Virus genome (UHGV): UHGV-0150473
Source of the DNA: a virus
Reading direction: 5' to 3' (one strand)
DNA: 41,266 bases
Position 1 is the stretch's first letter, and every line of letters begins with the position of its first letter. This document shows, piece by piece, positions 4,383-38,369 of the stretch. The translations under genes were made by a program, and so were the position numbers. Under the pieces are notes generated by a model that was not told the origin of the DNA, searched no databases, and worked only from the letters and a program-made list of their open reading frames with translations.

Positions 4383-4862
4383 CTAATATTGAGATGGTGT
4401 ATTGCGTTCAGACCATGGGTTGCCTTCTAATTCCCATAACTCTTTGCCAAGTCGTTTAGCAGTATCCCATTTGTCTTTGTCAATACATTTATTGATTTCA
4501 ATAATTAATTTGTGACGCTTATCCTCTACTTTTTTGCGCAGTGGACGTGCTACACGTTGTTTACCTTCTTGTGGGTTAATAGCCCAACCAAGATTATTGC
4601 AGTGTGTGTTATTAACATCACCATCTTTGTAATATAGGTAGCCTAGATTATCTTTGTTTAGTACAAATGATTCAGCTACTAAGTTAGCAATAAAAAATTT
4701 ACGTGTCTTGTTGTGTGAGCCTTCTAATACTACATATGGTTTGCCGTTGTCATCATATGAGTTCCATACCGTTAAACTTGTGTCACGGTCAATCACATAT
4801 CCCATGTTTGAAACTGCGTATCTCTCATACGGTTCAAACAATGGTTCAAATTTTTCAATCAT
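4383..4862 (-). CDS. HNH homing endonuclease (NUMOD4/HNH_3-like)
   Basis: 'YAVSNMGYV' NUMOD4-like N-term and 'DGDVNNTHCNNLGW' HNH_3-like motif. Confidence 0.6.
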   Translation of the reverse strand: MIEKFEPLFEPYERYAVSNMGYVIDRDTSLTVWNSYDDNGKPYVVLEGSHNKTRKFFIANLVAESFVLNKDNLGYLYYKDGDVNNTHCNNLGWAINPQEGKQRVARPLRKKVEDKRHKLIIEINKCIDKDKWDTAKRLGKELWELEGNPWSERNTPSQY

Positions 4863-5750: not shown

Positions 5751-5956
5751 CAATCCATGACCTCTGCCATGTAATGAAATACTTCACTTGCGTATTGCAT
5801 ATTTTGAAAACTTGTAAATCCTTCATCACGTTTATAGGTCATTACTGAATATGGAAAATCTGTACTGTACACATCACCAAACCCATTGGGGTTGTGTTTA
5901 ATACTAATACCCCATCCATTTTCAAACTCTCTACTTAACATATCCATACTATTCAT
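5747..5956 (-). CDS. hypothetical protein (69 aa)
   Basis: ORF translationally coupled to primase gene. Confidence 0.4.
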   Translation of the reverse strand: MNSMDMLSREFENGWGISIKHNPNGFGDVYSTDFPYSVMTYKRDEGFTSFQNMQYASEVFHYMAEVMDW

Positions 5957-6696
5957 TATTCATTCTCCATTCTTCTAATTTCTCGTTTTTTAACTGAATC
6001 ATATGTGCGTTTCAGTTCTGTACTGTCAAGTGGGGGATTACATCCTATCTGGTTAGTATATTGCGCCCAAACCCATACTTCTTCATGCTCTAATCCTGTA
6101 GCAAACAACTTACCAATCATTTGCGTTATCCAGTTGTTTCGTCCTCCTTCATCACTTCCAGCGATAATATCACCTAACAGGTTTGCAGTCCATTTGCGTT
6201 CACGTTTTTTGTTCTTTTTCTGAATTGTTTTATCTGTGAAAATATCAAACCATTTTACAGGTAGGTCTGCAATTGGTGAATTGTCAATCACTTCATATTT
6301 TACACCATCAATAGTTGAACCCCACCCAACAATGTAGCGTCCATGTGTTTGGAAGTCAACACCTTCAAGTTCCTTATGGTTTTGAATAAATTGCACATCA
6401 TTATATTTTTCAGGTAGGTTGTAATACAGATGAAGCCCACCACTTGGTGTCATAACTGTTTTAGTGTCTGGTAACTCAATATCATACTTTTCGCAAAACT
6501 CTTTGAGGTTATCAGCACCACTAACACCATTATGAGTGTCAATATCAATTACTGCAATACCTGATAACTTACCAGTTAAAATACCATAGTTACCACCTTC
6601 TGCAACCCACTTCTTTACTTCTACTTTATCTTCACCATTAAATGAACCAGCAACTAACGGTGCTTTGCCATTCTTTTTAAGTCTTAATAGTTCCAT
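5956..6696 (-). CDS. DNA primase/polymerase (Prim-Pol, bifunctional DNA primase-polymerase N-terminal domain)
   Basis: 'GIAVIDIDTHNG...SGGLHLYY' Prim-Pol motifs; start at MELLRL with RBS AGGAGGAA (ORF-track start 6717 contains the RBS). Confidence 0.65.
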   Translation of the reverse strand: MELLRLKKNGKAPLVAGSFNGEDKVEVKKWVAEGGNYGILTGKLSGIAVIDIDTHNGVSGADNLKEFCEKYDIELPDTKTVMTPSGGLHLYYNLPEKYNDVQFIQNHKELEGVDFQTHGRYIVGWGSTIDGVKYEVIDNSPIADLPVKWFDIFTDKTIQKKNKKRERKWTANLLGDIIAGSDEGGRNNWITQMIGKLFATGLEHEEVWVWAQYTNQIGCNPPLDSTELKRTYDSVKKREIRRMENE

Positions 6697-6707
6697 ATTG
6701 TTTCCTC

Positions 6708-6896
6708 CTATGAACATGCTACAATCTTAGCTGTTTCTAAATTATAACTATTTACTTCAATAATAAGCACATCAAGTCCATGTATGTTCTCCATCACTTC
6801 CTCCATATAATTTTCTGCTAACTCTTTGGTAGTGAAAACCTCTGATTGGTAAGCTAGTGTTCTAGCTTCAAAATCAATAATATTTACAATATACAT
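6708..6896 (-). CDS. hypothetical protein (62 aa)
   Basis: ORF downstream of consensus promoter at 6903-6958, RBS GAGGAGG. Confidence 0.45.
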   Translation of the reverse strand: MYIVNIIDFEARTLAYQSEVFTTKELAENYMEEVMENIHGLDVLIIEVNSYNLETAKIVACS

Positions 6897-6958: not shown

Positions 6959-7131
6959 TTAATTGAATAAAACACTAAGTTCTCTAATTTTAATACGAAT
7001 ATTTCTGAATCACCAAAACTAAGTTCTAAAAAACGTTGTGTGATATTTACACGTTTAACATTGGTAAATAAGATATTTCTATTATCTTTACCAGCCATAA
7101 AGTTTACTGTTACTTCTTTTAATTCTTTCAT
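6955..7131 (-). CDS. small hypothetical protein (58 aa, MKELKEVTVNFMAGKDN...)
   Basis: Not in ORF track (<60 aa); RBS GGAGGA 9 nt upstream; ATGA overlap with helicase stop. Confidence 0.4.
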   Translation of the reverse strand: MKELKEVTVNFMAGKDNRNILFTNVKRVNITQRFLELSFGDSEIFVLKLENLVFYSIK

Positions 7132-8432
7132 TTTAATATATCCTCCATCATTTCATTAGTAAAGTCTTGACCGTTTGTAACTGTTTCAAAAATCTTTTTC
7201 TCCGTTGGTGTTTCAGGTACAATGTGATAATAAAGTGGTTTCTTGGTTTGACCATAACGGTCTGTGCGTGCCTTAGATTGTTCATAGTTGATTGATTCTA
7301 AAGGCATTGAATTGTAAATTGTCACATTTGCAATAACAAAATCATTAATACCTGTAGAAGCTGATTTGTAGTGTGCTAACACAACACCGTTGTCTTTACC
7401 TTTAAATACTTTTAAGTCTTTGCTAGCGCCATTATATTGACTATATGGACGTTTTAACTTGTCTAATACTTGTTTCAACATTTCAAATTCCACATTGTAA
7501 TTATAAAAGATAACTACTCGTTCGTTGTTATGTGTTTCAAGAATCTGGTTCAGTCGTTCAAATGGTTCTTTGCTTACCTGTTTGTTGATTCCTAATAAGA
7601 AACCATGTGATACACAGCGCATTGCGTTAAATAGTTTACTACTATTATCTAATTCAATCACTTCACCGTTATCTGCTTTGTACATGCGGTTTTTCTTTAA
7701 TTTATTAAACATTGCTGGCTTTTTAGTCTTATACACATAGTCTGCTGGGAAATAGTCTTTATCACGTGTGAAGCGTACTGCACATTGGTCAATCATTTGT
7801 TGTAATAAATGTTCGTTTTGATAACCTACAATATCCATAAACCGCATAGAACCCATTTGTCGCATTTGCTTAATAACAAATAGTTGCTCAAACTCTTTTT
7901 TAGGCTTGCGGAATACATTAAGCATAAATAACTGCGGATAGTAGTTTTCTAACTTGCCATTACTAACAGGTGTTGCTGTTAATAGTCTAACATAAGGTGT
8001 TTTCTTTGTCAACTTCATAGCAAACTTAGTTACTTTTGAGGAACTAACACCAACCTTGTGTGCTTCGTCTAAAATTATGAACGTGTCACTATCTACCCAT
8101 TTTAACAATTCAGTCACTCTCCAGCTACTTTCAAATGAGATTGCAACTCGTGTTGATTCAGCTAATAACTCTTTATTTTTCTTTGTTCCTTTATTGAGTG
8201 GTGTAATCTCAATATCCATCAACGCGCCATCTTCCACAAAGTCCGCAACTTTTGGTGCTAAACAGATAACTAGCAACTTCTTACACCCGCTTTGCAGGTA
8301 GGCACCCAAGGCGGTGAATGTCTTTCCAGTGCCGGCGTCACTTAAATCATAAGGCTTTTCTTTCCATTGTTTAATACCTTCAATTTGCGTTGGTAATAAT
8401 TCTATTTTGCCTATTTTATTTGGAATATTCAA
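7128..8432 (-). CDS. SNF2-family DEAD/DEAH-box helicase
   Basis: Walker A 'DAGTGKT', DEAH box 'ILDEAHKV', helicase C motifs; TTG start with AGGAGG RBS. Confidence 0.75.
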   Translation of the reverse strand: MNIPNKIGKIELLPTQIEGIKQWKEKPYDLSDAGTGKTFTALGAYLQSGCKKLLVICLAPKVADFVEDGALMDIEITPLNKGTKKNKELLAESTRVAISFESSWRVTELLKWVDSDTFIILDEAHKVGVSSSKVTKFAMKLTKKTPYVRLLTATPVSNGKLENYYPQLFMLNVFRKPKKEFEQLFVIKQMRQMGSMRFMDIVGYQNEHLLQQMIDQCAVRFTRDKDYFPADYVYKTKKPAMFNKLKKNRMYKADNGEVIELDNSSKLFNAMRCVSHGFLLGINKQVSKEPFERLNQILETHNNERVVIFYNYNVEFEMLKQVLDKLKRPYSQYNGASKDLKVFKGKDNGVVLAHYKSASTGINDFVIANVTIYNSMPLESINYEQSKARTDRYGQTKKPLYYHIVPETPTEKKIFETVTNGQDFTNEMMEDILK

Positions 8433-8916
8433 AGATATAACCTCCTACATGTTTTCGCTTACCGTTATTATATCTATAAAACTGTGTTTGTGATATTCCC
8501 AATTGCTTAATACACTCACCTAATGAATTATACACATTGTATTCTCCATTTGCAATATCTATAGCTTTTATTTTCTTTTGCTTAGATATGCTAGCTCTTA
8601 TGTTGCGTGTACCATGATTAAGATTCTCTTTAATTGTAGCCCATTCAAGATTAGAAACCATGTTGTTTGTTTTATCTTCGTCAATATGGTTTACTGTAGG
8701 TTTGTTTTCTGGGTTTGGTATGAATGTTTCTGCTACTAAACGGTGTACGTTTTTATTTTTATATGTGCCATCTTTATATAATTTTAATCTCAAATAATTT
8801 TCATGTGTTAATGTTCCAAATCTAATACTACCTCTTTTTAAGCTTTTAACTCTACCTAAGTTACTAACCTGATATAAACCCTCATAACCTTTAATATCTT
8901 TCCATTCTTCAATCAT
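8416..8916 (-). CDS. HNH homing endonuclease (NUMOD4 + HNH_3)
   Basis: 'EEWKDIKGYEGLYQVSNLGRVKS' NUMOD4 signature, 'HIDEDKTNNMVSNLEWAT' HNH_3; start MIEEW overlaps VRR-NUC stop (ATGATTGA). Confidence 0.8.
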   Translation of the reverse strand: MIEEWKDIKGYEGLYQVSNLGRVKSLKRGSIRFGTLTHENYLRLKLYKDGTYKNKNVHRLVAETFIPNPENKPTVNHIDEDKTNNMVSNLEWATIKENLNHGTRNIRASISKQKKIKAIDIANGEYNVYNSLGECIKQLGISQTQFYRYNNGKRKHVGGYIFEYSK

Positions 8917-9319
8917 AGTCAATCTCCAATTCATCATAATTTATTTCTGGCAAATCTGGTTGTTCATATGTGTATGGATATTCCACACCATTATCCATCT
9001 GGTCTAAGTGAAGTAATAGGTCCTCTAAATCATCAAGCGAATCTCTTAATAAAAGACCATATCCACCAGCACATCTAATTTCTTGTAAGTATCTTATTTG
9101 TAATTTATCAGCTTTATAGTTGCCTGTTTTAAGCTCTAAAGCGATATAATAGCCACTGTAGCAGGCTTCAATGTCTGCACGTCCAACACGGTCATATATG
9201 GTTGCTGTGTTAACATTTACAACCGCTCCTCTTGATTTCAAGTATTCTACTACTTCTTTACTAAATTTAGCTTCTTTTTTCACGTGCTGAACCACCTTTT
9301 TTAGACATACCTTGTGCAA
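8909..9319 (-). CDS. VRR-NUC domain nuclease (PD-(D/E)xK); start codon uncertain (TTG 9319 or GTG ~9283)
   Basis: 'GRADIEACYSGYYIALELKTG' D..E.K motif, typical partner of SNF2 helicase. Confidence 0.65.
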   Translation of the reverse strand: MHKVCLKKVVQHVKKEAKFSKEVVEYLKSRGAVVNVNTATIYDRVGRADIEACYSGYYIALELKTGNYKADKLQIRYLQEIRCAGGYGLLLRDSLDDLEDLLLHLDQMDNGVEYPYTYEQPDLPEINYDELEIDYD

Positions 9320-11497: not shown

Positions 11498-13078
11498 TTA
11501 GAAAATATTATCTGTTTCAGTAAAGTTGTTAGCCCATTTGATATTGGTTAGCACATACTGTGGTTTTCCGTTAACTCGTTTTTTAACTCTGTTTAATACA
11601 ATATTCTGCGATTTACGTTGTAGTTCTGGCACAAACTTGCGAGCTGAAACGGTCATTAGTCCTTCATTAACTAACATATCGTTATATGCTTCTAATAATT
11701 CGTTTGTTGGGATAAATGAGTTTTCATCTTCCGTGAACTCAATTTCGTTCATGTCAATAAAGTTTGCCATTGTGTCATTTCCTTGTATAAATGCGTCACG
11801 CAATTTATTTGCATTCTCACTGGTCCAGAAATGCCCTTTGGTTTCTCCGTTTAGTCCAAAAAGTACATTTCTATATTGTTGTAAACAGTAGCTGATAAAC
11901 TCTGATTTTTCTTCATATGTGAAATTCTTTGAACGTTCCAGCCACATTGAATCTGTTGGGTTATCTCTTCCCATTGTCTTATTAAACGGTAATGTGATAA
12001 TACGGCGCAAGAAACCATGTGAGGTGTCTGAAAACGTAGGCATGTTATTAGTTGTGAAAATCATTAGTGCGTAGTTGGTAAATGTGAACTTGTTAATACC
12101 TTTGTACTCTGCACTCATAACATCATTACCTGATAGTGTTTTCAGTGTACCTGTTTGTTTAATGTGTTGTGCTGGCATATCTGTTTCAATATTCACCATT
12201 TTACCAAATAATTGAGAGCTTGCGAATTTGTCATTATTACCTGACAAGCTAGCTAGTGTTGCATGACTTGTATTTGATTTTCCTACTAGTTCCTCAATAA
12301 ATGCCATAACGTGAGATTTACCGTTACTACCTTCACCAGTTGCGAATACCATTGCTTGCGGGTCTTGGTTGCGGTAGAAAATACGTCCAATCAATTGAAA
12401 TAGTGTTTTTGCGTCCTCTTCTAAAATATACTCAATCCATTCAGCAACGATATTGTGTTTAGGATTCTCAATATAATCATATTCAATTCTTGTTGTTTGG
12501 TAGTCCTCTTTTACCGTTGGTTTTAATGTGTCCTCTTTAAAGCGATATGTGCCATTTTTAAAGGCTATTTTGTTTGGGTCCATTTTGTCATTAAATGGTA
12601 AGTTAGCACCAGAAGCAAGTGCATTTTTTGCCATTCTTTGAACTGCATTTCTAAATTGGTTAGCAACCTTTGCATTTTCTGCATAATGTGGTGTGTATAC
12701 CATCATAAACTCATTGTAAAGCTTTTGCCATAAACGAGCTTCTAAATTGTCCTCTGATACCTCATAGATTTTTGTGTCATGATTATAAACCACTGGTAAA
12801 CCAATTGTTGAACTTGCGTGTACTGGTAATACCTTAGCCATGTGAACAGCTAATGCTTCTGCGTTTAATCCGTCATAACTTGGTTCTGGTCGTTGTGGCT
12901 CTGCATTCTTAGCCGCATCTCCATTTTTGAAGTCAACTTCCCACTCTTTATGGTCCTTTTCGTATTCTGATAATGCTTTGATATATTGCTTGCTTGGTGT
13001 CAAAGTCTTTTCAAGCGTGCTGATAAAGCTTAATTCAACTGGTTGGTCATATTCAACTTTTTGTAATTCATTTACCAT
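11498..13078 (-). CDS. primase-associated SF3 helicase, phage/plasmid primase P4-family C-terminal domain / D5-like
   Basis: P-loop 'ATGEGSNGKS', Walker B region; 526 aa; RBS AGGAGG. Confidence 0.7.
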   Translation of the reverse strand: MVNELQKVEYDQPVELSFISTLEKTLTPSKQYIKALSEYEKDHKEWEVDFKNGDAAKNAEPQRPEPSYDGLNAEALAVHMAKVLPVHASSTIGLPVVYNHDTKIYEVSEDNLEARLWQKLYNEFMMVYTPHYAENAKVANQFRNAVQRMAKNALASGANLPFNDKMDPNKIAFKNGTYRFKEDTLKPTVKEDYQTTRIEYDYIENPKHNIVAEWIEYILEEDAKTLFQLIGRIFYRNQDPQAMVFATGEGSNGKSHVMAFIEELVGKSNTSHATLASLSGNNDKFASSQLFGKMVNIETDMPAQHIKQTGTLKTLSGNDVMSAEYKGINKFTFTNYALMIFTTNNMPTFSDTSHGFLRRIITLPFNKTMGRDNPTDSMWLERSKNFTYEEKSEFISYCLQQYRNVLFGLNGETKGHFWTSENANKLRDAFIQGNDTMANFIDMNEIEFTEDENSFIPTNELLEAYNDMLVNEGLMTVSARKFVPELQRKSQNIVLNRVKKRVNGKPQYVLTNIKWANNFTETDNIF

Positions 13079-15697: not shown

Positions 15698-15963
15698 TAT
15701 TCTTCCGCCCATTCAATTTGTTTGATTGATACTAAACCAAGTGTGTTGCGTAATGTGTAATGTTCATTCCAGTATATAAACTGTGTTAATAGTGGTTTAT
15801 CGTTACCAGTGTATGTTTCTTGTTTATTATAGTTACGTTCTTCAATTTGTTCTTCAATTTTATCTACCATTTCATGATAATACTTGAGCGCACTCTCATA
15901 TGAACTGAACCCTCTCATTGCTGGCACTTTATAATCAACTTTTACTAACCATGCGGTTTTCAT
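15697..15963 (-). CDS. hypothetical protein (88 aa, start MKTAWLV, TAATG-coupled)
   Basis: ORF. Confidence 0.4.
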   Translation of the reverse strand: MKTAWLVKVDYKVPAMRGFSSYESALKYYHEMVDKIEEQIEERNYNKQETYTGNDKPLLTQFIYWNEHYTLRNTLGLVSIKQIEWAEE

Positions 15964-16145
15964 TATACATGCCCCCAAATCTCTTTGATAGTTTCAATCA
16001 TTAAATCTTGTTCTGCTTCAACTTTTTTACATACACGAATTAAGCCAGCCATTAACATGTAAATCACTTCTGCTTCATCTGCTTTTTTAATATTAATACT
16101 TAACTCTTTGTTTTCATCAAGTGTTAGTAACACTTTGTTTGTCAT
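15963..16145 (-). CDS. hypothetical protein (60 aa)
   Basis: ORF. Confidence 0.4.
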   Translation of the reverse strand: MTNKVLLTLDENKELSINIKKADEAEVIYMLMAGLIRVCKKVEAEQDLMIETIKEIWGHV

Positions 16146-16183: not shown

Positions 16184-16549
16184 CTATACATTCTTTAGTT
16201 TGTCAAGTCTTTTGTGTAAATCTTTTAATCTTTCTCCATATCGTTTCATTATTCCATCATACTGTTTTACATACTCTCTATAATCGTTCATATTACCTTG
16301 ACTATAGTAGAAATTCATATTATCAATACAATTGTCTAAGTCCTCTGTGAAATGGTCCTGTGTGCTTTTAATTAGTTGTTCAAGCTTTTGTACTTCATTT
16401 TCATGTTCTTCAACTTCTGTTTCAGTAATAATGTAATGCATACCATCAGATACAGTGTACTGTGCCAGTGTTTCATCATCTCCCATTTTGTCCAAGTGTT
16501 CTTGTAGTGCTAACTGTGTATGAAATACGTGTGCTTTACGTTTAATCAT
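16184..16549 (-). CDS. hypothetical early protein (121 aa)
   Basis: ORF with RBS. Confidence 0.45.
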   Translation of the reverse strand: MIKRKAHVFHTQLALQEHLDKMGDDETLAQYTVSDGMHYIITETEVEEHENEVQKLEQLIKSTQDHFTEDLDNCIDNMNFYYSQGNMNDYREYVKQYDGIMKRYGERLKDLHKRLDKLKNV

Positions 16550-16563
16550 TTTTCTATTCCTCC

Positions 16564-16776
16564 TTAAATATATGACTTATTATATAGTAGTTCTTTCATT
16601 TCGTCAAGTGATTCATATATGAATTGTTCTTCATCTGGTGAGAATATTAATCTAGTTCCATATGAACCATAAGTACACCTAACTACTACTGCATCATAGT
16701 CTGTCAGTTTATACATAGTGAAATGATAGTCCTTACCGTTGAAACGTGTTCCTTTTTCAGTCCATGTGTATATCAT
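16564..16776 (-). CDS. first early gene of leftward arm, hypothetical (70 aa)
   Basis: ORF with RBS GAGGAGGAAA, promoter TTGACA upstream. Confidence 0.45.
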   Translation of the reverse strand: MIYTWTEKGTRFNGKDYHFTMYKLTDYDAVVVRCTYGSYGTRLIFSPDEEQFIYESLDEMKELLYNKSYI

Positions 16777-16859
16777 AATTGTTTCCTCCTCGTTTGTTTA
16801 TAATTGTTGTGGTTTACATTTACTATACTAAACCATGTTGATTGAATTGTCAACAGTTT

Positions 16860-17281
16860 TGTTTAAATTTATTTAAAAATAATGAAACCAGTTGAAAAGT
16901 TCTTGATTGTTCTTCATTGAAGAACATGCTTTAGCCTTAGAGCCACAAGGGATTGAACCAATGCGTTCTCGATTGGAGGTGTTTTTACTACTCACCTACC
17001 AGAATTATATTTTATATTATATATTTTTCTACAAATAGAGTAGAATATATGAAGAACACAGAGAACAGTTATAATAAAATAAGCTAAGAATGTTGGTTTA
17101 TCAATGTTTATAGGTGTTCTTCATTGGAATATTTGGTTACTTAAAAAGAGAACACATCAAGAACATCAAGAACGCATGAAGAACATTTCATTGGTTATTA
17201 ATGATTAATCTATTCCCTAAAGTACAAATAAGTATGGTATAATATAGAAGTAAAGTAAAAACATATTAGGAGGAATTAATT
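16860..17281. promoter_or_regulatory. divergent early/late control region with GAAGAACA iterons, perfect 9-1-9 palindrome TGTTCTTCATTGAAGAACA, AT-rich tract; candidate origin/switch
   Basis: Eight or more copies of GAAGAACA/TGTTCTTC within 300 bp; AT-rich 16985-17045; divergent promoters (minus TTGACA at ~16836, plus TGgTATAAT at 17235-17243). Confidence 0.5.
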
Positions 17282-17482: not shown

Positions 17483-17730
17483 TGGAACATGAACTATATA
17501 ATAAGACAGATAAGCAGTTACTAAAGAGTAACAAGGTGGACCTAGTGGCATACATCAGAACACTGGAGGGTACACTAGCCACATACGTTAACAATGCAGT
17601 AGAACCATTAGATAGTGAAGGGAATGTATATGATAGTACACAACCATCTATCACTGAACCAACACCACAACACTTGACATCATATACCTTTACTGATACA
17701 GTAACTAAGAAAGACATCTACTCATTCTAA
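17482..17730 (+). CDS. hypothetical protein (82 aa)
   Basis: TAATG coupling both sides. Confidence 0.45.
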   Translation: MEHELYNKTDKQLLKSNKVDLVAYIRTLEGTLATYVNNAVEPLDSEGNVYDSTQPSITEPTPQHLTSYTFTDTVTKKDIYSF

Positions 17731-18125
17731 TGTATAAGAAGTGCAAGGTTGCTTTATGTAGAGAATACGTAAAGCAACCAGAGGTGTATTGTGATAAGCA
17801 CAAAGGTAACGCAGCCACACAATACAACAAGTATGTGCGAACTAATCCACAGAACAAAAGGTATGCAGAGTTCTACCAGTCAAGTGAATGGAAAAGGTTA
17901 AGACAATACAAGTTAAGTATCAATCCAATGTGTGAAGTATGTGAACGCAATGACCACACCAAGACGCTTGCCACTATCGTCCACCATGTGGAGGAAATAC
18001 GTACACCAATTGGTTGGGAAAAACGTTTAGATATTAATAATTTAGAATCAATTTGTCAATCCTGTCACAATAGAGAGGACCACGCTCATTCCTTTAAAAA
18101 TGCAGGTAGGGCTAACCATAAATAA
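17730..18125 (+). CDS. terminase-associated HNH endonuclease
   Basis: Cys pairs and 'HHVEEI...CQSCHN' HNH motif; located immediately upstream of cos/terS as in cos-type HK97-like phages. Confidence 0.75.
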   Translation: MYKKCKVALCREYVKQPEVYCDKHKGNAATQYNKYVRTNPQNKRYAEFYQSSEWKRLRQYKLSINPMCEVCERNDHTKTLATIVHHVEEIRTPIGWEKRLDINNLESICQSCHNREDHAHSFKNAGRANHK

Positions 18126-18200
18126 TTTTAAGGGGGATAGCGCCAAAAGCGAGGGGAGGGTAGCTGAAAATTTTAACCCCCCCCGCCAAATTTTTGGTGG
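18126..18200. other. candidate cohesive-end (cos) site region: anomalous GC-rich tracts (GGGGGATAGCGCC, GAGGGGAGGG, CCCCCCCCGCC) in AT-rich genome
   Basis: Position between HNH and terS; compositional anomaly. Confidence 0.4.
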
Positions 18201-18402
18201 CTACAATCGGAGATTCCTTCTTTTCACACAGAATTCTAAAAACGAAGTTTCAAAACAGCCTTTTTCCCTCGTAAAAAACGATTCAAAACCGGTTTCTTTT
18301 CAATAATATCAAACGTTTCACGCATTGTTTCATAATCTCACTAATACGAATTTCTTCCCTCATAAACAGTACAAAACCTGGTTTCTCAAACAATAGGTTT
18401 TG

Positions 18403-18652: not shown

Positions 18653-19126
18653 ATGGGTAGACCAAGAAAGTTAATCAATGCCCAAGTTGGCAACCTTACA
18701 CAAGAGCAACAACACCAACGCAAAAAGGAAGAAGAAAAGTTATATAACTACGAGAAGTTAGACTTTTCATATTATCCAGCTGGATTGTTGCAACAAGCCT
18801 ACCACGAGTGGGAACGTATTTCACACTTTATTGGTGACCTACCAATTTCAGAACTTGACCAACAAGCAATGGTTAGGTATTGCAATTATAGTTACCTATA
18901 TTCAGAAATGGCTGAACAAGTTGCATATGAAGGACCTTTGACAGAAGACGGAAAGTTAAACCCTAAAGTAACTGCTATGAACTCTTACTCAAAGGAACTA
19001 AAAAGCGCAACAAATGACTTAGGTTTAACTATCAATTCAAGATTAAAACTGGTAGCACCAAAAGAAGTTGAAGATGAATCAAAAGACCCATTAGGTCAAT
19101 TGCTTAAAATGCGCGCACAAGGTTAG
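18653..19126 (+). CDS. terS: terminase small subunit (P27 family)
   Basis: N-terminal 'MGRPRKL' motif, 157 aa, RBS AAGGAGGTG, upstream of terL. Confidence 0.7.
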   Translation: MGRPRKLINAQVGNLTQEQQHQRKKEEEKLYNYEKLDFSYYPAGLLQQAYHEWERISHFIGDLPISELDQQAMVRYCNYSYLYSEMAEQVAYEGPLTEDGKLNPKVTAMNSYSKELKSATNDLGLTINSRLKLVAPKEVEDESKDPLGQLLKMRAQG

Positions 19127-37385: not shown

Positions 37386-38369
37386 ATGAAATTAAAAGGT
37401 ATTTTATTTGGTGCATTAGCAACCATTGGTTTGTTTGCTGGAATGCAAACAGCTAACGCATATGAAGTTAATAACGAGTTCAATTTAAACCCTTGGGAAG
37501 GTTCAGGACAGGTTGCAGTACCTAATAAGATTATCTTACATGAAACTGCTAATGAACGTGCCACAGGACGAAATGAAGCAACGTACATGAAAAACAACTG
37601 GTTTAATGCTCATACAACAGCTATCATTGGTGACGGTGGTATTGTGTATAAGATTGCACCAGAAGGCAACGTTTCATGGGGCGCTGGTAATGCAAACCCC
37701 TACGCACCTATTCAAATTGAGTTACAACATACGCATGATAAAGAGTTATTCAAAAAGAACTATAAAGCGTACATTGACTATACAAGGGACATGGGTAAAA
37801 AGTTTGGTATTCCTATGACGCTTGACCAAGGTACTTCTGTTTGGGAAAAAGGTGTTATCTCTCATAAATGGGTATCAGATTATGTATGGGGTGACCACAC
37901 AGACCCATATGGTTACTTAGCAGAAATGGGAATTAGCAAAGCGCAACTAGCTAAAGACTTAGCAAATGGCGTTCAGGGTGATTCTAAGCCGTCAAACCCA
38001 GCAACACCTAACAAACCATCTAAACCAAGTGTAACACCTCAAAAACAACGTTTTAACTATAGAGTTGATGGGTTGGAATATGTAAACGGAATGTGGCAAA
38101 TCTATAACGAACATTTAGGTAAAATTGACTTTAATTGGAATGATAACGGTATTCCAGTTAGTGTTGTTGATAAAGTAAACCCAGCTACTGGGCAACCAAC
38201 CAAAGACCAAGTTCTTTCTGTAGGTGATTACTTCAATTTCCAAGTTAATTCTGTAGGTGTAGTGCAAGAGCAAACACCTTACGGTGGTTATACATTATCT
38301 CATGTACAGTTACCAGAAGAGTTCATTTGGTTATTCACTGAAAACAAAAACACTTTATTATATCAATAA
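37386..38369 (+). CDS. endolysin: secreted peptidoglycan amidase-like hydrolase with N-terminal signal peptide and C-terminal cell-wall-binding domain
   Basis: Signal peptide MKLKGILFGALATIGLFAGMQTANA|YE (AxA site); catalytic region 'ILHETANE...NVSWGAGNANPY..IQIEL' with His residues, no Cys. Confidence 0.7.
   Translation: MKLKGILFGALATIGLFAGMQTANAYEVNNEFNLNPWEGSGQVAVPNKIILHETANERATGRNEATYMKNNWFNAHTTAIIGDGGIVYKIAPEGNVSWGAGNANPYAPIQIELQHTHDKELFKKNYKAYIDYTRDMGKKFGIPMTLDQGTSVWEKGVISHKWVSDYVWGDHTDPYGYLAEMGISKAQLAKDLANGVQGDSKPSNPATPNKPSKPSVTPQKQRFNYRVDGLEYVNGMWQIYNEHLGKIDFNWNDNGIPVSVVDKVNPATGQPTKDQVLSVGDYFNFQVNSVGVVQEQTPYGGYTLSHVQLPEEFIWLFTENKNTLLYQ

What the first reader, a model, noticed from the sequence alone, without database searches (positions are those of the whole stretch)
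16860..17281. Divergent early/late intergenic region with GAAGAACA iterons, a perfect 19-bp palindrome and an AT-rich tract: candidate origin and/or transcriptional switch
Between the first leftward early gene and the first rightward gene there are at least 8 copies of GAAGAACA/TGTTCTTC in both orientations. These include TGTTCTTCATTGAAGAACA at ~16906-16924 and a direct array at 17149-17185 (gagaacacatcaagaacatcaagaacgcatgaagaaca). There is also an AT-rich stretch at 16985-17045. No gene in the window is an obvious iteron-binding initiator, so the binding protein may be one of the unknown early proteins or a host factor.
Basis: seen in the sequence. Interest (0 to 1): 0.65.

Follow-up and report, generated by a model that had tools for sequence, protein, structure and literature searches.

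The report
Phage replication origin with iterons
The repeats are real and most likely mark the replication origin of an Enterococcus phage, bound by the phage's own SaPI-Rep-like helicase; this kind of origin is known and was recently predicted for a related phage.

Summary
The window is an Efquatrovirus-type Enterococcus faecalis siphophage. The 505-bp gap between the leftward early genes and the rightward genes holds 11 copies of a 10-bp repeat, AT(G/C)(A/G)AGAACA. Four lie left and seven right of an AT-rich tract, mostly in opposite orientation, and conserved promoters sit at both ends.

The exact 8-mer GAAGAACA occurs only 5 times there, not 8. The palindrome is two head-to-head repeats at 16908-16926.

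Related phages keep this architecture, but the repeat sequence changes: GTTAC, ATAAC, GGAAC, GGTCA, GTTCC, GTCCC. The only early gene that tracks the change is the 526-aa protein at 11498-13078(-). It has D5_N and an SF3 helicase core, matches TIGR01613, and its best structural match is SaPI5 PriRep5. Of 35 fixed differences between AGAAC-type and GTTAC-type phages, 34 fall in its C-terminal ~85 residues, a predicted winged helix.

So this is most likely a SaPI-like iteron origin recognised by a self-loading helicase. No experiment supports this yet.

The cos site is about 1 kb away, so the repeats are not a packaging signal. A 2026 paper predicts the same kind of origin for the related phage Abitsa. 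The finding is real but of modest novelty.

The parts
16825..16853 (-). Leftward early promoter: -35 TTGACA (16853-16848), 17-nt spacer, -10 TAGTAT (16830-16825)
   Evidence: Consensus scan scores 10 of 12. Nearly invariant in 24 relatives.
16898..16973 (.). Left iteron set, 4 copies. AGAAC cores at 16899(-), 16909(-), 16921(+), 16965(-). It includes the 19-bp palindrome 16908-16926, which is two head-to-head iterons.
   Evidence: Orthologous positions carry other cores in other phages.
16936..16969 (.). Conserved block CTTAGAGCCACAAGGGATTGAACCAATG(C/T)GTTCT; function unknown
   Evidence: Alignment. The 15-mer occurs reverse-complemented in L050.
16996..17050 (.). AT-rich tract, the candidate DNA-unwinding element between the two iteron sets
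   Evidence: 88% AT in 40-bp windows. The sequence varies, but AT-richness is kept in all iteron types.
17049..17185 (.). Right iteron set, 7 copies. AGAAC cores at 17053(+), 17062(+), 17116(-), 17149(+), 17160(+), 17169(+), 17180(+). Spacing within clusters is 9-11 bp.
17070..17075 (+). Internal -10-like TATAAT just downstream of the iteron pair 17053/17062. A possible internal promoter, not conserved in all iteron types.
   Evidence: Read from the sequence and the alignment. Inference only.
17093..17108 (.). Conserved element TTGGTTTATCAATGTT, kept in every iteron type and sometimes present as a palindrome; binder unknown
17197..17247 (+). Rightward promoter block ATTAATGATTAATCTATTCCCTAAA...TGgTATAAT. 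Extended -10 at 17235-17243; poor -35.
   Evidence: Almost invariant in all relatives. CTATTCCCTAAA occurs once in the window.
11498..13078 (-). Candidate initiator: 526-aa Rep-like self-loading SF3 helicase, annotated 'DNA primase' in relatives
   Evidence: Pfam D5_N and DUF5906. TIGR01613 at 142.6 bits against a cutoff of 108.7. The only PDB sequence hit is 7OLA, SaPI5 PriRep5. Best fold match is 7OLA, E 3e-22, TM 0.73.
11501..11773 (-). C-terminal winged-helix domain (aa 436-526), the candidate iteron-recognition module
   Evidence: 34 of 35 fixed differences between AGAAC-type and GTTAC-type phages lie here. The AF2 model shows helix-strand-helix-helix-hairpin topology. Best fold matches are RFX DNA-binding domains, TM 0.72-0.73.
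5956..6717 (-). Prim-Pol + PriCT_1 primase, the likely partner of the helicase
   Evidence: Pfam hits at 1.6e-23 and 3e-13.
18208..18216 (.). Predicted cos overhang (CGGAGATTC). Not part of the origin; listed to show that packaging and origin sites are separate.
   Evidence: The phiNASRA1 and TV54 records end at the position that aligns with window 18207. IME-EF4 termini were determined experimentally (PMC4445525).

Best explanation
Region 16898-17185 is the phage's origin of replication, of the SaPI type. It has two sets of 10-bp iterons, AT(G/C)(A/G)AGAACA: four on the left, mostly on the minus strand, and seven on the right, mostly on the plus strand. They flank an AT-rich unwinding tract.

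Proposed mechanism (all steps inferred):
1. The early leftward operon expresses the 526-aa Rep-like SF3 helicase (11498-13078, minus strand).
2. Its C-terminal winged-helix domain reads the iterons.
3. Hexamers assemble on each side, melt the AT-rich tract and load themselves.
4. The separate Prim-Pol primase (5956-6717) and the phage DNA polymerase then start bidirectional synthesis.

The origin sits between the two divergent promoters. Transcription and Rep binding may therefore influence each other, but that is not shown.

What is shown: repeat enrichment, conserved architecture, co-variation of iteron and C-terminal domain, and protein family and fold. What is inferred: binding, melting and initiation at this site.
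For: 1. The repeats are strongly enriched and confined to the intergenic region.
2. In 24 or more relatives the layout is kept: iterons in opposite orientation around an AT-rich centre, with invariant promoters at both ends.
3. The iteron sequence changes between phages at orthologous positions:
   - AGAAC (window)
   - GCGTTAC
   - GCATAAC
   - GTGGAAC
   - GTGGTCA
   - GTGTTAC
   - GTGTTCC
   - GTCCC

4. Of 46 window ORFs tested against 14 loci in a mosaic background, only the 526-aa protein tracks iteron type. It is 99% identical in 9 of 9 AGAAC loci, 90-91% in 4 of 4 GTTAC/ATAAC loci and 69% in the GGAAC locus.
5. 34 of 35 fixed differences lie in aa 442-523.
6. In GenBank, 26 records carry the type-B C-terminal domain. 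All 23 records hit by the type-B iteron core are among them, and 0 of 80 type-A records are hit.
7. The protein matches the SaPI Rep / P4 family, and its C-terminal domain is a predicted winged helix.
8. SaPI Reps use exactly such a domain to read iterons on both sides of an AT-rich region (PMC9371898).
9. The cumulative GC skew minimum lies at about 17000.
10. An independent paper predicts the same kind of origin for the Efquatrovirus phage Abitsa (PMC13517437).
Against: - There is no experimental origin mapping for any phage of this genus.
- GC skew is confounded by the switch in transcription direction.
- The co-variation counts lineages, not independent events. There are perhaps 7-8 independent changes.
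- One pair fits only partly. P0003/L052 has a C-terminal domain 80% identical to the window's, yet its iterons have a GTCCC core. They do share the 5' AT(C/G)(A/G) flank and the 3' A with the window's iterons, 5 to 6 of the 10 iteron positions.
- Unlike in SaPIs, the origin is not next to the rep gene; it lies 3.8 kb upstream.
- The AT-rich tract is not exceptional for this genome.
- The winged-helix fold matches have weak E-values, the best being 1.9e-3.
Confidence: 0.8

Rival explanations
1. The repeats are operators that only regulate the divergent early and rightward promoters, forming a transcriptional switch. They would be bound by Rep or another early protein, and replication would start elsewhere.
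For: The repeats lie between two conserved promoters. A four-repeat array sits about 50 bp upstream of the -10 of a rightward promoter that lacks a good -35. Two repeats occupy the -35/spacer position of an internal TATAAT.
Against: The protein that co-varies is an SF3 helicase of the SaPI Rep family, not a regulator. Inverted sets around an AT-rich centre are an origin layout. The distance from the array to the promoter is not fixed, since ZAT1, Ef212 and IME-EF4 carry insertions of about 95-130 bp. The internal TATAAT is absent in type-B phages.
Confidence: 0.08
2. The repeats are terminase small-subunit recognition sites (cosB-like) used for DNA packaging.
For: The region lies upstream of the packaging genes, and repeats in both orientations occur in some pac and cos regions.
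Against: The cos cleavage site maps to about 18208-18216, 1 kb to the right and beyond three genes. TerS identity does not track iteron type: a type-B locus has 96% TerS identity to the window while type-A loci have 78%.
Confidence: 0.02
3. The repeats bind a host protein such as DnaA, a nucleoid protein or a host regulator.
For: Some elements in the region are conserved whatever the iteron type (TTGGTTTATCAAYGTT, CTTAGAGCCACAAGG) and could be host-factor sites.
Against: The iteron core differs between phages of the same host species and co-varies with a phage protein. There is no DnaA box with one mismatch or fewer in the region.
Confidence: 0.04
4. The repeats are a chance or compositional artefact, or a degenerate mobile or coding remnant.
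For: GAAGAACA is favoured on coding strands. Small ORFs can be drawn in the region.
Against: There is about 12-fold local enrichment. Positions and orientations are conserved across the genus. No ORF is conserved. No tRNA or Rfam family is found.
Confidence: 0.01

Closest known systems
SaPI replication origins with Rep / PriRep self-loading helicases (SaPI1, SaPIbov1, SaPI5; PDB 7OLA, 7PDS)
   Same: Both have an SF3 helicase with D5_N and a C-terminal winged helix. Both have 6-12 short iterons split around a central AT-rich region, with opposite orientations on the two sides, and a separate or fused Prim-Pol primase. Specificity resides in the C-terminal domain (PMC9371898).
   Different: Here the origin is not immediately downstream of rep; it lies 3.8 kb upstream, in the divergent promoter region. 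The element is a lytic phage, not a satellite. The iterons are about 10 bp long with a 5-nt variable core. Sequence identity to PriRep5 is only about 18-19%.
Predicted origin of Enterococcus phage Abitsa, genus Efquatrovirus (PMC13517437, 2026)
   Same: Same genus and same reasoning: a PriRep5-like helicase and seven 10-bp iterons around an AT-rich region, near one genome end.
   Different: That is a prediction by analogy in a different species, and I could not compare its sequence. The co-variation of iteron type with the C-terminal domain across the genus is not among the passages I read; I read section 3.6 and term hits, not the whole paper.
Phage P4 alpha protein and its ori/crr iterons
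   Same: The window protein meets the TIGR01613 'P4 family primase C-terminal' model. In P4 a C-terminal winged-helix origin-binding domain reads iterons. P4 OBD 1KA8 appears among the fold matches at TM 0.47-0.51.
   Different: No primase domain is detected in the window protein. The fold match to the P4 OBD is weak, at rank 49.
Lambdoid O protein / ori-lambda specificity types (from my own knowledge)
   Same: Iterons and the DNA-binding domain of the initiator change together between related mosaic phages.
   Different: O is not a helicase, its DNA-binding domain is N-terminal, and ori-lambda lies inside the O gene.

Membership tests
SaPI-type Rep/iteron origin | Initiator is an SF3 helicase with D5_N, homologous to SaPI Rep / PriRep5 | tested here: met
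   Pfam D5_N and DUF5906. phmmer finds only 7OLA, E 1.4e-14. Foldseek top hit is 7OLA, E 3e-22, TM 0.73 normalised to the target.
SaPI-type Rep/iteron origin | C-terminal winged-helix domain in the initiator | tested here: met
   Prediction only. AF2 pLDDT is about 85-90 over aa 436-515 with winged-helix topology. Best matches are the RFX1/RFX5 DNA-binding domains, TM 0.72-0.73, with weak E-values.
SaPI-type Rep/iteron origin | 6-12 short iterons on both sides of a central AT-rich region, at least two per side, pointing in opposite directions | tested here: met
   Eleven iterons, oriented - - + - | + + - + + + + around 16996-17050. The same pattern occurs in seven other iteron types.
SaPI-type Rep/iteron origin | Origin lies immediately downstream of the rep ORF | tested here: not met
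   The origin is at 16898-17185 and rep at 11498-13078(-). It therefore lies 3.8 kb upstream, with about 13 ORFs between. In L051 rep is the first gene next to the origin, but it is still upstream.
SaPI-type Rep/iteron origin | Rep binds its cognate iterons specifically and melts the origin | not testable with these tools
   Indirect evidence only: co-variation of the C-terminal domain with the iteron type.
SaPI-type Rep/iteron origin | A cognate Prim-Pol primase is encoded | tested here: met
   Prim-Pol and PriCT_1 at 5956-6717(-), not adjacent to rep.
P4 alpha-type primase-helicase | Meets the TIGR01613 model (P4-family primase C-terminal region) | tested here: met
   142.6 bits against a cutoff of 108.7, covering aa 170-482.
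P4 alpha-type primase-helicase | Primase domain in the same polypeptide | tested here: not met
   No primase family is found by Pfam or NCBIfam in aa 1-157. Prim-Pol is a separate gene.
cos / terminase recognition region | Adjacent to the cohesive-end cleavage site | tested here: not met
   cos aligns to 18208-18216, 1023 bp from the last iteron.
DnaA-dependent origin | Cluster of DnaA boxes TTATCCACA | tested here: not met
   No box with one mismatch or fewer within 16777-17281. There are 12 in the window against 17.6 expected.

The most novel reading that the evidence does not exclude
The iteron sets may do more than start replication. In nearly every specificity type examined, a tandem iteron array (two to four copies) sits upstream of a near-invariant rightward promoter that lacks a -35. 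In this phage, two more iterons cover the -35/spacer of an internal promoter. Rep occupancy of the origin could therefore directly time the switch from early to late transcription, coupling packaging and structural gene expression to replication initiation. Separately, the genus would carry at least eight interchangeable modules, each pairing an origin with a Rep-wing specificity.
Probability: 0.12. Interest if true: 0.55.

Novelty: new member of a known kind. Interest (0 to 1): 0.35.

Why it matters
- It locates the probable origin and initiator of a group of phages widely used for Enterococcus therapy. The initiator is mislabelled 'DNA primase' or 'hypothetical' in most records.
- It shows that the origin and the last ~85 residues of the helicase are exchanged together between otherwise mosaic genomes.
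- The natural series of matched iteron / winged-helix pairs is a ready data set for working out how SaPI-type Rep domains read DNA, and for building orthogonal replicons.
- The gain is incremental, not surprising. Iteron origins with cognate initiators are textbook, and the same prediction was published for a sister phage in 2026.

Tried and rejected
- **tRNA and Rfam scans of the whole window:** nothing found.
- **cos site in the region:** rejected. The IME-EF4 terminal sequences do not match here, and record ends of relatives place cos at about 18208.
- **TerS as the binder:** TerS identity does not track the iteron type.
- **Other early ORFs as the binder:** none follows the A/B split. The 60-aa ORF 15963-16145 comes closest, but it is missing from an AGAAC locus, L041.
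- **Small ORFs inside the region:** none is conserved.
- **Intragenic GAAGAACA copies as extra iterons:** rejected.
- **DnaA boxes:** none.
- **Search for other phages with the L052 iteron type:** the pattern scan of IMG/VR was too permissive and gave only single chance matches.
- **P0003/L052 as a counter-example:** I first read it that way, because a type-A-like C-terminal domain is paired with different iterons. After orienting the copies, its iterons share the 5' flank and the 3' A with type A and differ in the 5-nt core. It fits partly and is not a refutation.
- **Ubeda 2007 (PMC1964853):** not held, so SaPI origin features are cited from PMC9371898.

Full report
**What the window is.** The region and its flanks match about 100 Enterococcus faecalis siphophages of the genus Efquatrovirus at 76-94% identity. 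The best match is MSF2. Genes run leftward from 16776 and rightward from 17282 to the lysis genes near 38369. The leftward arm appears to continue round the window ends to about 38460, which would make the window a whole genome in circular permutation; I did not test that. The finding lies in the 505-bp gap between the two arms.

**The observation.**
- Exact GAAGAACA occurs 10 times in the window against 1.9 expected, but only 5 of these are in the region.
- The conserved core is AGAAC. There are 11 copies between 16899 and 17184, at 16899-, 16909-, 16921+, 16965-, 17053+, 17062+, 17116-, 17149+, 17160+, 17169+ and 17180+.
- Oriented, they give AT(G/C)(A/G)AGAACA, with 9-11 bp spacing inside clusters.
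- Density is 10 per 300 bp, against a genome mean of 0.8 and a maximum of 6 elsewhere.
- The 'palindrome' at 16908-16926 is two head-to-head units.
- The AT-rich tract at 16996-17050 is real but not exceptional for this genome.
- Three exact copies in nearby early genes are ordinary coding sequence. They persist in phages that use other repeats.

**Anatomy from 24 aligned relatives.**
- Both ends of the gap are near-invariant promoters. On the left is TTGACA-17-TAGTAT, reading leftward (16853-16825).
- On the right is the block ATTAATGATTAATCTATTCCCTAAA...TGgTATAAT (17197-17247). It has an extended -10 and a poor -35.
- Between them, four iterons lie left of the AT-rich tract, mostly on the minus strand, and seven lie right of it, mostly on the plus strand.
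- No ORF in the gap is conserved. No tRNA or Rfam family is found.

**The key result: the repeat changes and one protein changes with it.** At the same positions, other phages carry different cores:
- GCGTTAC in L012/L044-L046
- GCATAAC in L047 (IME_EF3)
- GTGGAAC in L048
- GTGGTCA in L049
- GTGTTAC in L050
- GTGTTCC in L051
- GTCCC in L052

The orientation pattern around an AT-rich centre is the same in each.

I compared 46 window ORFs (40 leftward, 6 rightward) with 14 loci. The genomes are mosaics, with most ORFs at 40-99% identity in no consistent pattern. The 526-aa protein at 11498-13078(-) is the exception:
- 99% identical in all 9 AGAAC loci
- 90-91% in all 4 GTTAC/ATAAC loci
- 69% in the GGAAC locus

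Of the 35 positions that separate AGAAC-type from GTTAC-type proteins, 34 lie in aa 442-523. The first 440 residues have one.

In GenBank, 26 records have the type-B C-terminal domain. All 23 records that match the type-B iteron core are among them. The other three are IME_EF3, which has its own variant. None of the 80 type-A records match.

One pair fits only partly. P0003 is 80% identical to the window in this domain, yet its iterons have a GTCCC core. These iterons share the 5' AT(C/G)(A/G) flank and the 3' A with the window's and differ in the 5-nt core. All other types have an AAG(C/T)-like 5' flank.

**What the protein is.**
- Pfam finds D5_N and DUF5906.
- NCBIfam TIGR01613 (P4-family primase C-terminal region) scores above its cutoff.
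- The only PDB sequence hit is 7OLA, the SaPI5 PriRep5 helicase.
- An AlphaFold model (mean pLDDT 85.5) has 7OLA as its best structural match, E 3e-22. Chains with the C-terminal domain built align over more columns than chains without it.
- The domain aa 436-526 has winged-helix topology. Modelled alone, it best matches the RFX DNA-binding domains (TM 0.72-0.73). Orc1/Cdc6, RepE and the P4 origin-binding domain rank lower, and all E-values are weak.
- The putative recognition helix (aa 479-489) is similar in all types. The hairpin wing that follows is the most variable part. From my own knowledge, this would fit RFX-like binding, where the wing reads the major groove. That step is inference.
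- A separate Prim-Pol/PriCT_1 primase (5956-6717) and an SNF2-type helicase (7128-8432) are also encoded.

**Comparison with what is known.** SaPI Reps are self-loading SF3 helicases. Their C-terminal winged helix recognises 6-12 short iterons placed on both sides of an AT-rich region, with opposite orientation on the two sides (PMC9371898). The window matches all of these features except position: SaPI origins lie just downstream of rep, whereas here the origin is 3.8 kb upstream, between divergent promoters.

A paper of August 2026 on the Efquatrovirus phage Abitsa makes the same prediction by analogy. It describes a PriRep5-like helicase and seven 10-bp iterons around an AT-rich region near a genome end (PMC13517437). 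The kind of element is therefore known and already proposed for this genus. What this analysis adds is the co-variation evidence and the mapping of specificity to the last ~85 residues.

**Rivals.**
- Packaging site: rejected. IME-EF4 termini were determined experimentally. The phiNASRA1 and TV54 records end at the position that aligns with window 18207, which puts the 9-nt overhang at 18208-18216, 1 kb from the last iteron. TerS does not track iteron type.
- Host-factor sites: unlikely, because the core changes between phages of one host species. No DnaA box is present.
- A purely transcriptional role: cannot be excluded for some copies. The co-varying protein is a helicase, and the layout is that of an origin.

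**Limits.**
- Nothing here is experimental.
- GC skew has its minimum near 17000, but that coincides with the change in transcription direction.
- The co-variation rests on perhaps 7-8 independent switches.
- Several conserved elements inside the origin remain unexplained.

Noticed in passing
window 18126-18220: The predicted cos site. The phiNASRA1 and TV54 records end where window 18207 aligns. The 9-nt 3' overhang would be 18208-18216 (CGGAGATTC), preceded by a G-run/C-run stretch (GGGGG...GAGGGGAGGG...CCCCCCCC, about 18133-18184). It lies between the HNH endonuclease gene (17730-18125) and TerS (18653-19126), an HK97-like arrangement.
   Followed up: partly
L001 (IME-EF4) 957-1581; also L036 (SANTOR1), L037 (Ec-ZZ2), L041 (AL2): These four phages carry eight extra copies of AAAAAGTGTAGACA inside the origin region (about 503 bp instead of 375) in addition to 11 AGAAC iterons. 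Their Rep is type A, so a second, unidentified binder or an inserted element is implied.
   Followed up: no
window 17197-17247: The rightward promoter block ATTAATGATTAATCTATTCCCTAAA..TGgTATAAT is almost invariant across all origin types. It has no recognisable -35. It contains the near-palindrome TTAATGATTAA. CTATTCCCTAAA occurs only once in the genome. It may need an activator or a modified RNA polymerase.
   Followed up: partly
window 16936-16950; L050 7017-7466: The 15-mer CTTAGAGCCACAAGG is conserved in most AGAAC-type origins and occurs reverse-complemented in L050. A related CCCTTG(T/G/A)GAGAGTAAG occurs at other positions in Alamo, MF-DL, SHEF4, the type-B phages and IME-EF4. Function unknown.
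   Followed up: no
window 17093-17108 (and 16953-16965): The element TTGGTTTATCAA(C/T)GTT, or its complement, is kept in every iteron type. In L047 it forms the perfect palindrome CGTTGATATATCAACG. It is a candidate site for a factor that does not depend on the iteron type. It is not a DnaA box.
   Followed up: no
window 16184-16776 and relatives L013-L024: The first one or two leftward genes next to the origin differ completely between relatives (products of 62 to 147 aa), while the origin itself is conserved. In L051 the rep gene itself is the first gene.
   Followed up: partly
window 8416-8937 (-) and 4383-4862 (-): There are further HNH-type genes inside the replication arm. ORF 8416-8937 has NUMOD4, HNH_3 and I-HmuI-like domains; it is absent from some relatives and only 38-65% identical in others, as expected for a mobile intron-less endonuclease. 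ORF 4383-4862 corresponds by size and position to the HNH endonuclease annotated in Sigurd and is conserved at 81-99% wherever that region is covered.
   Followed up: no
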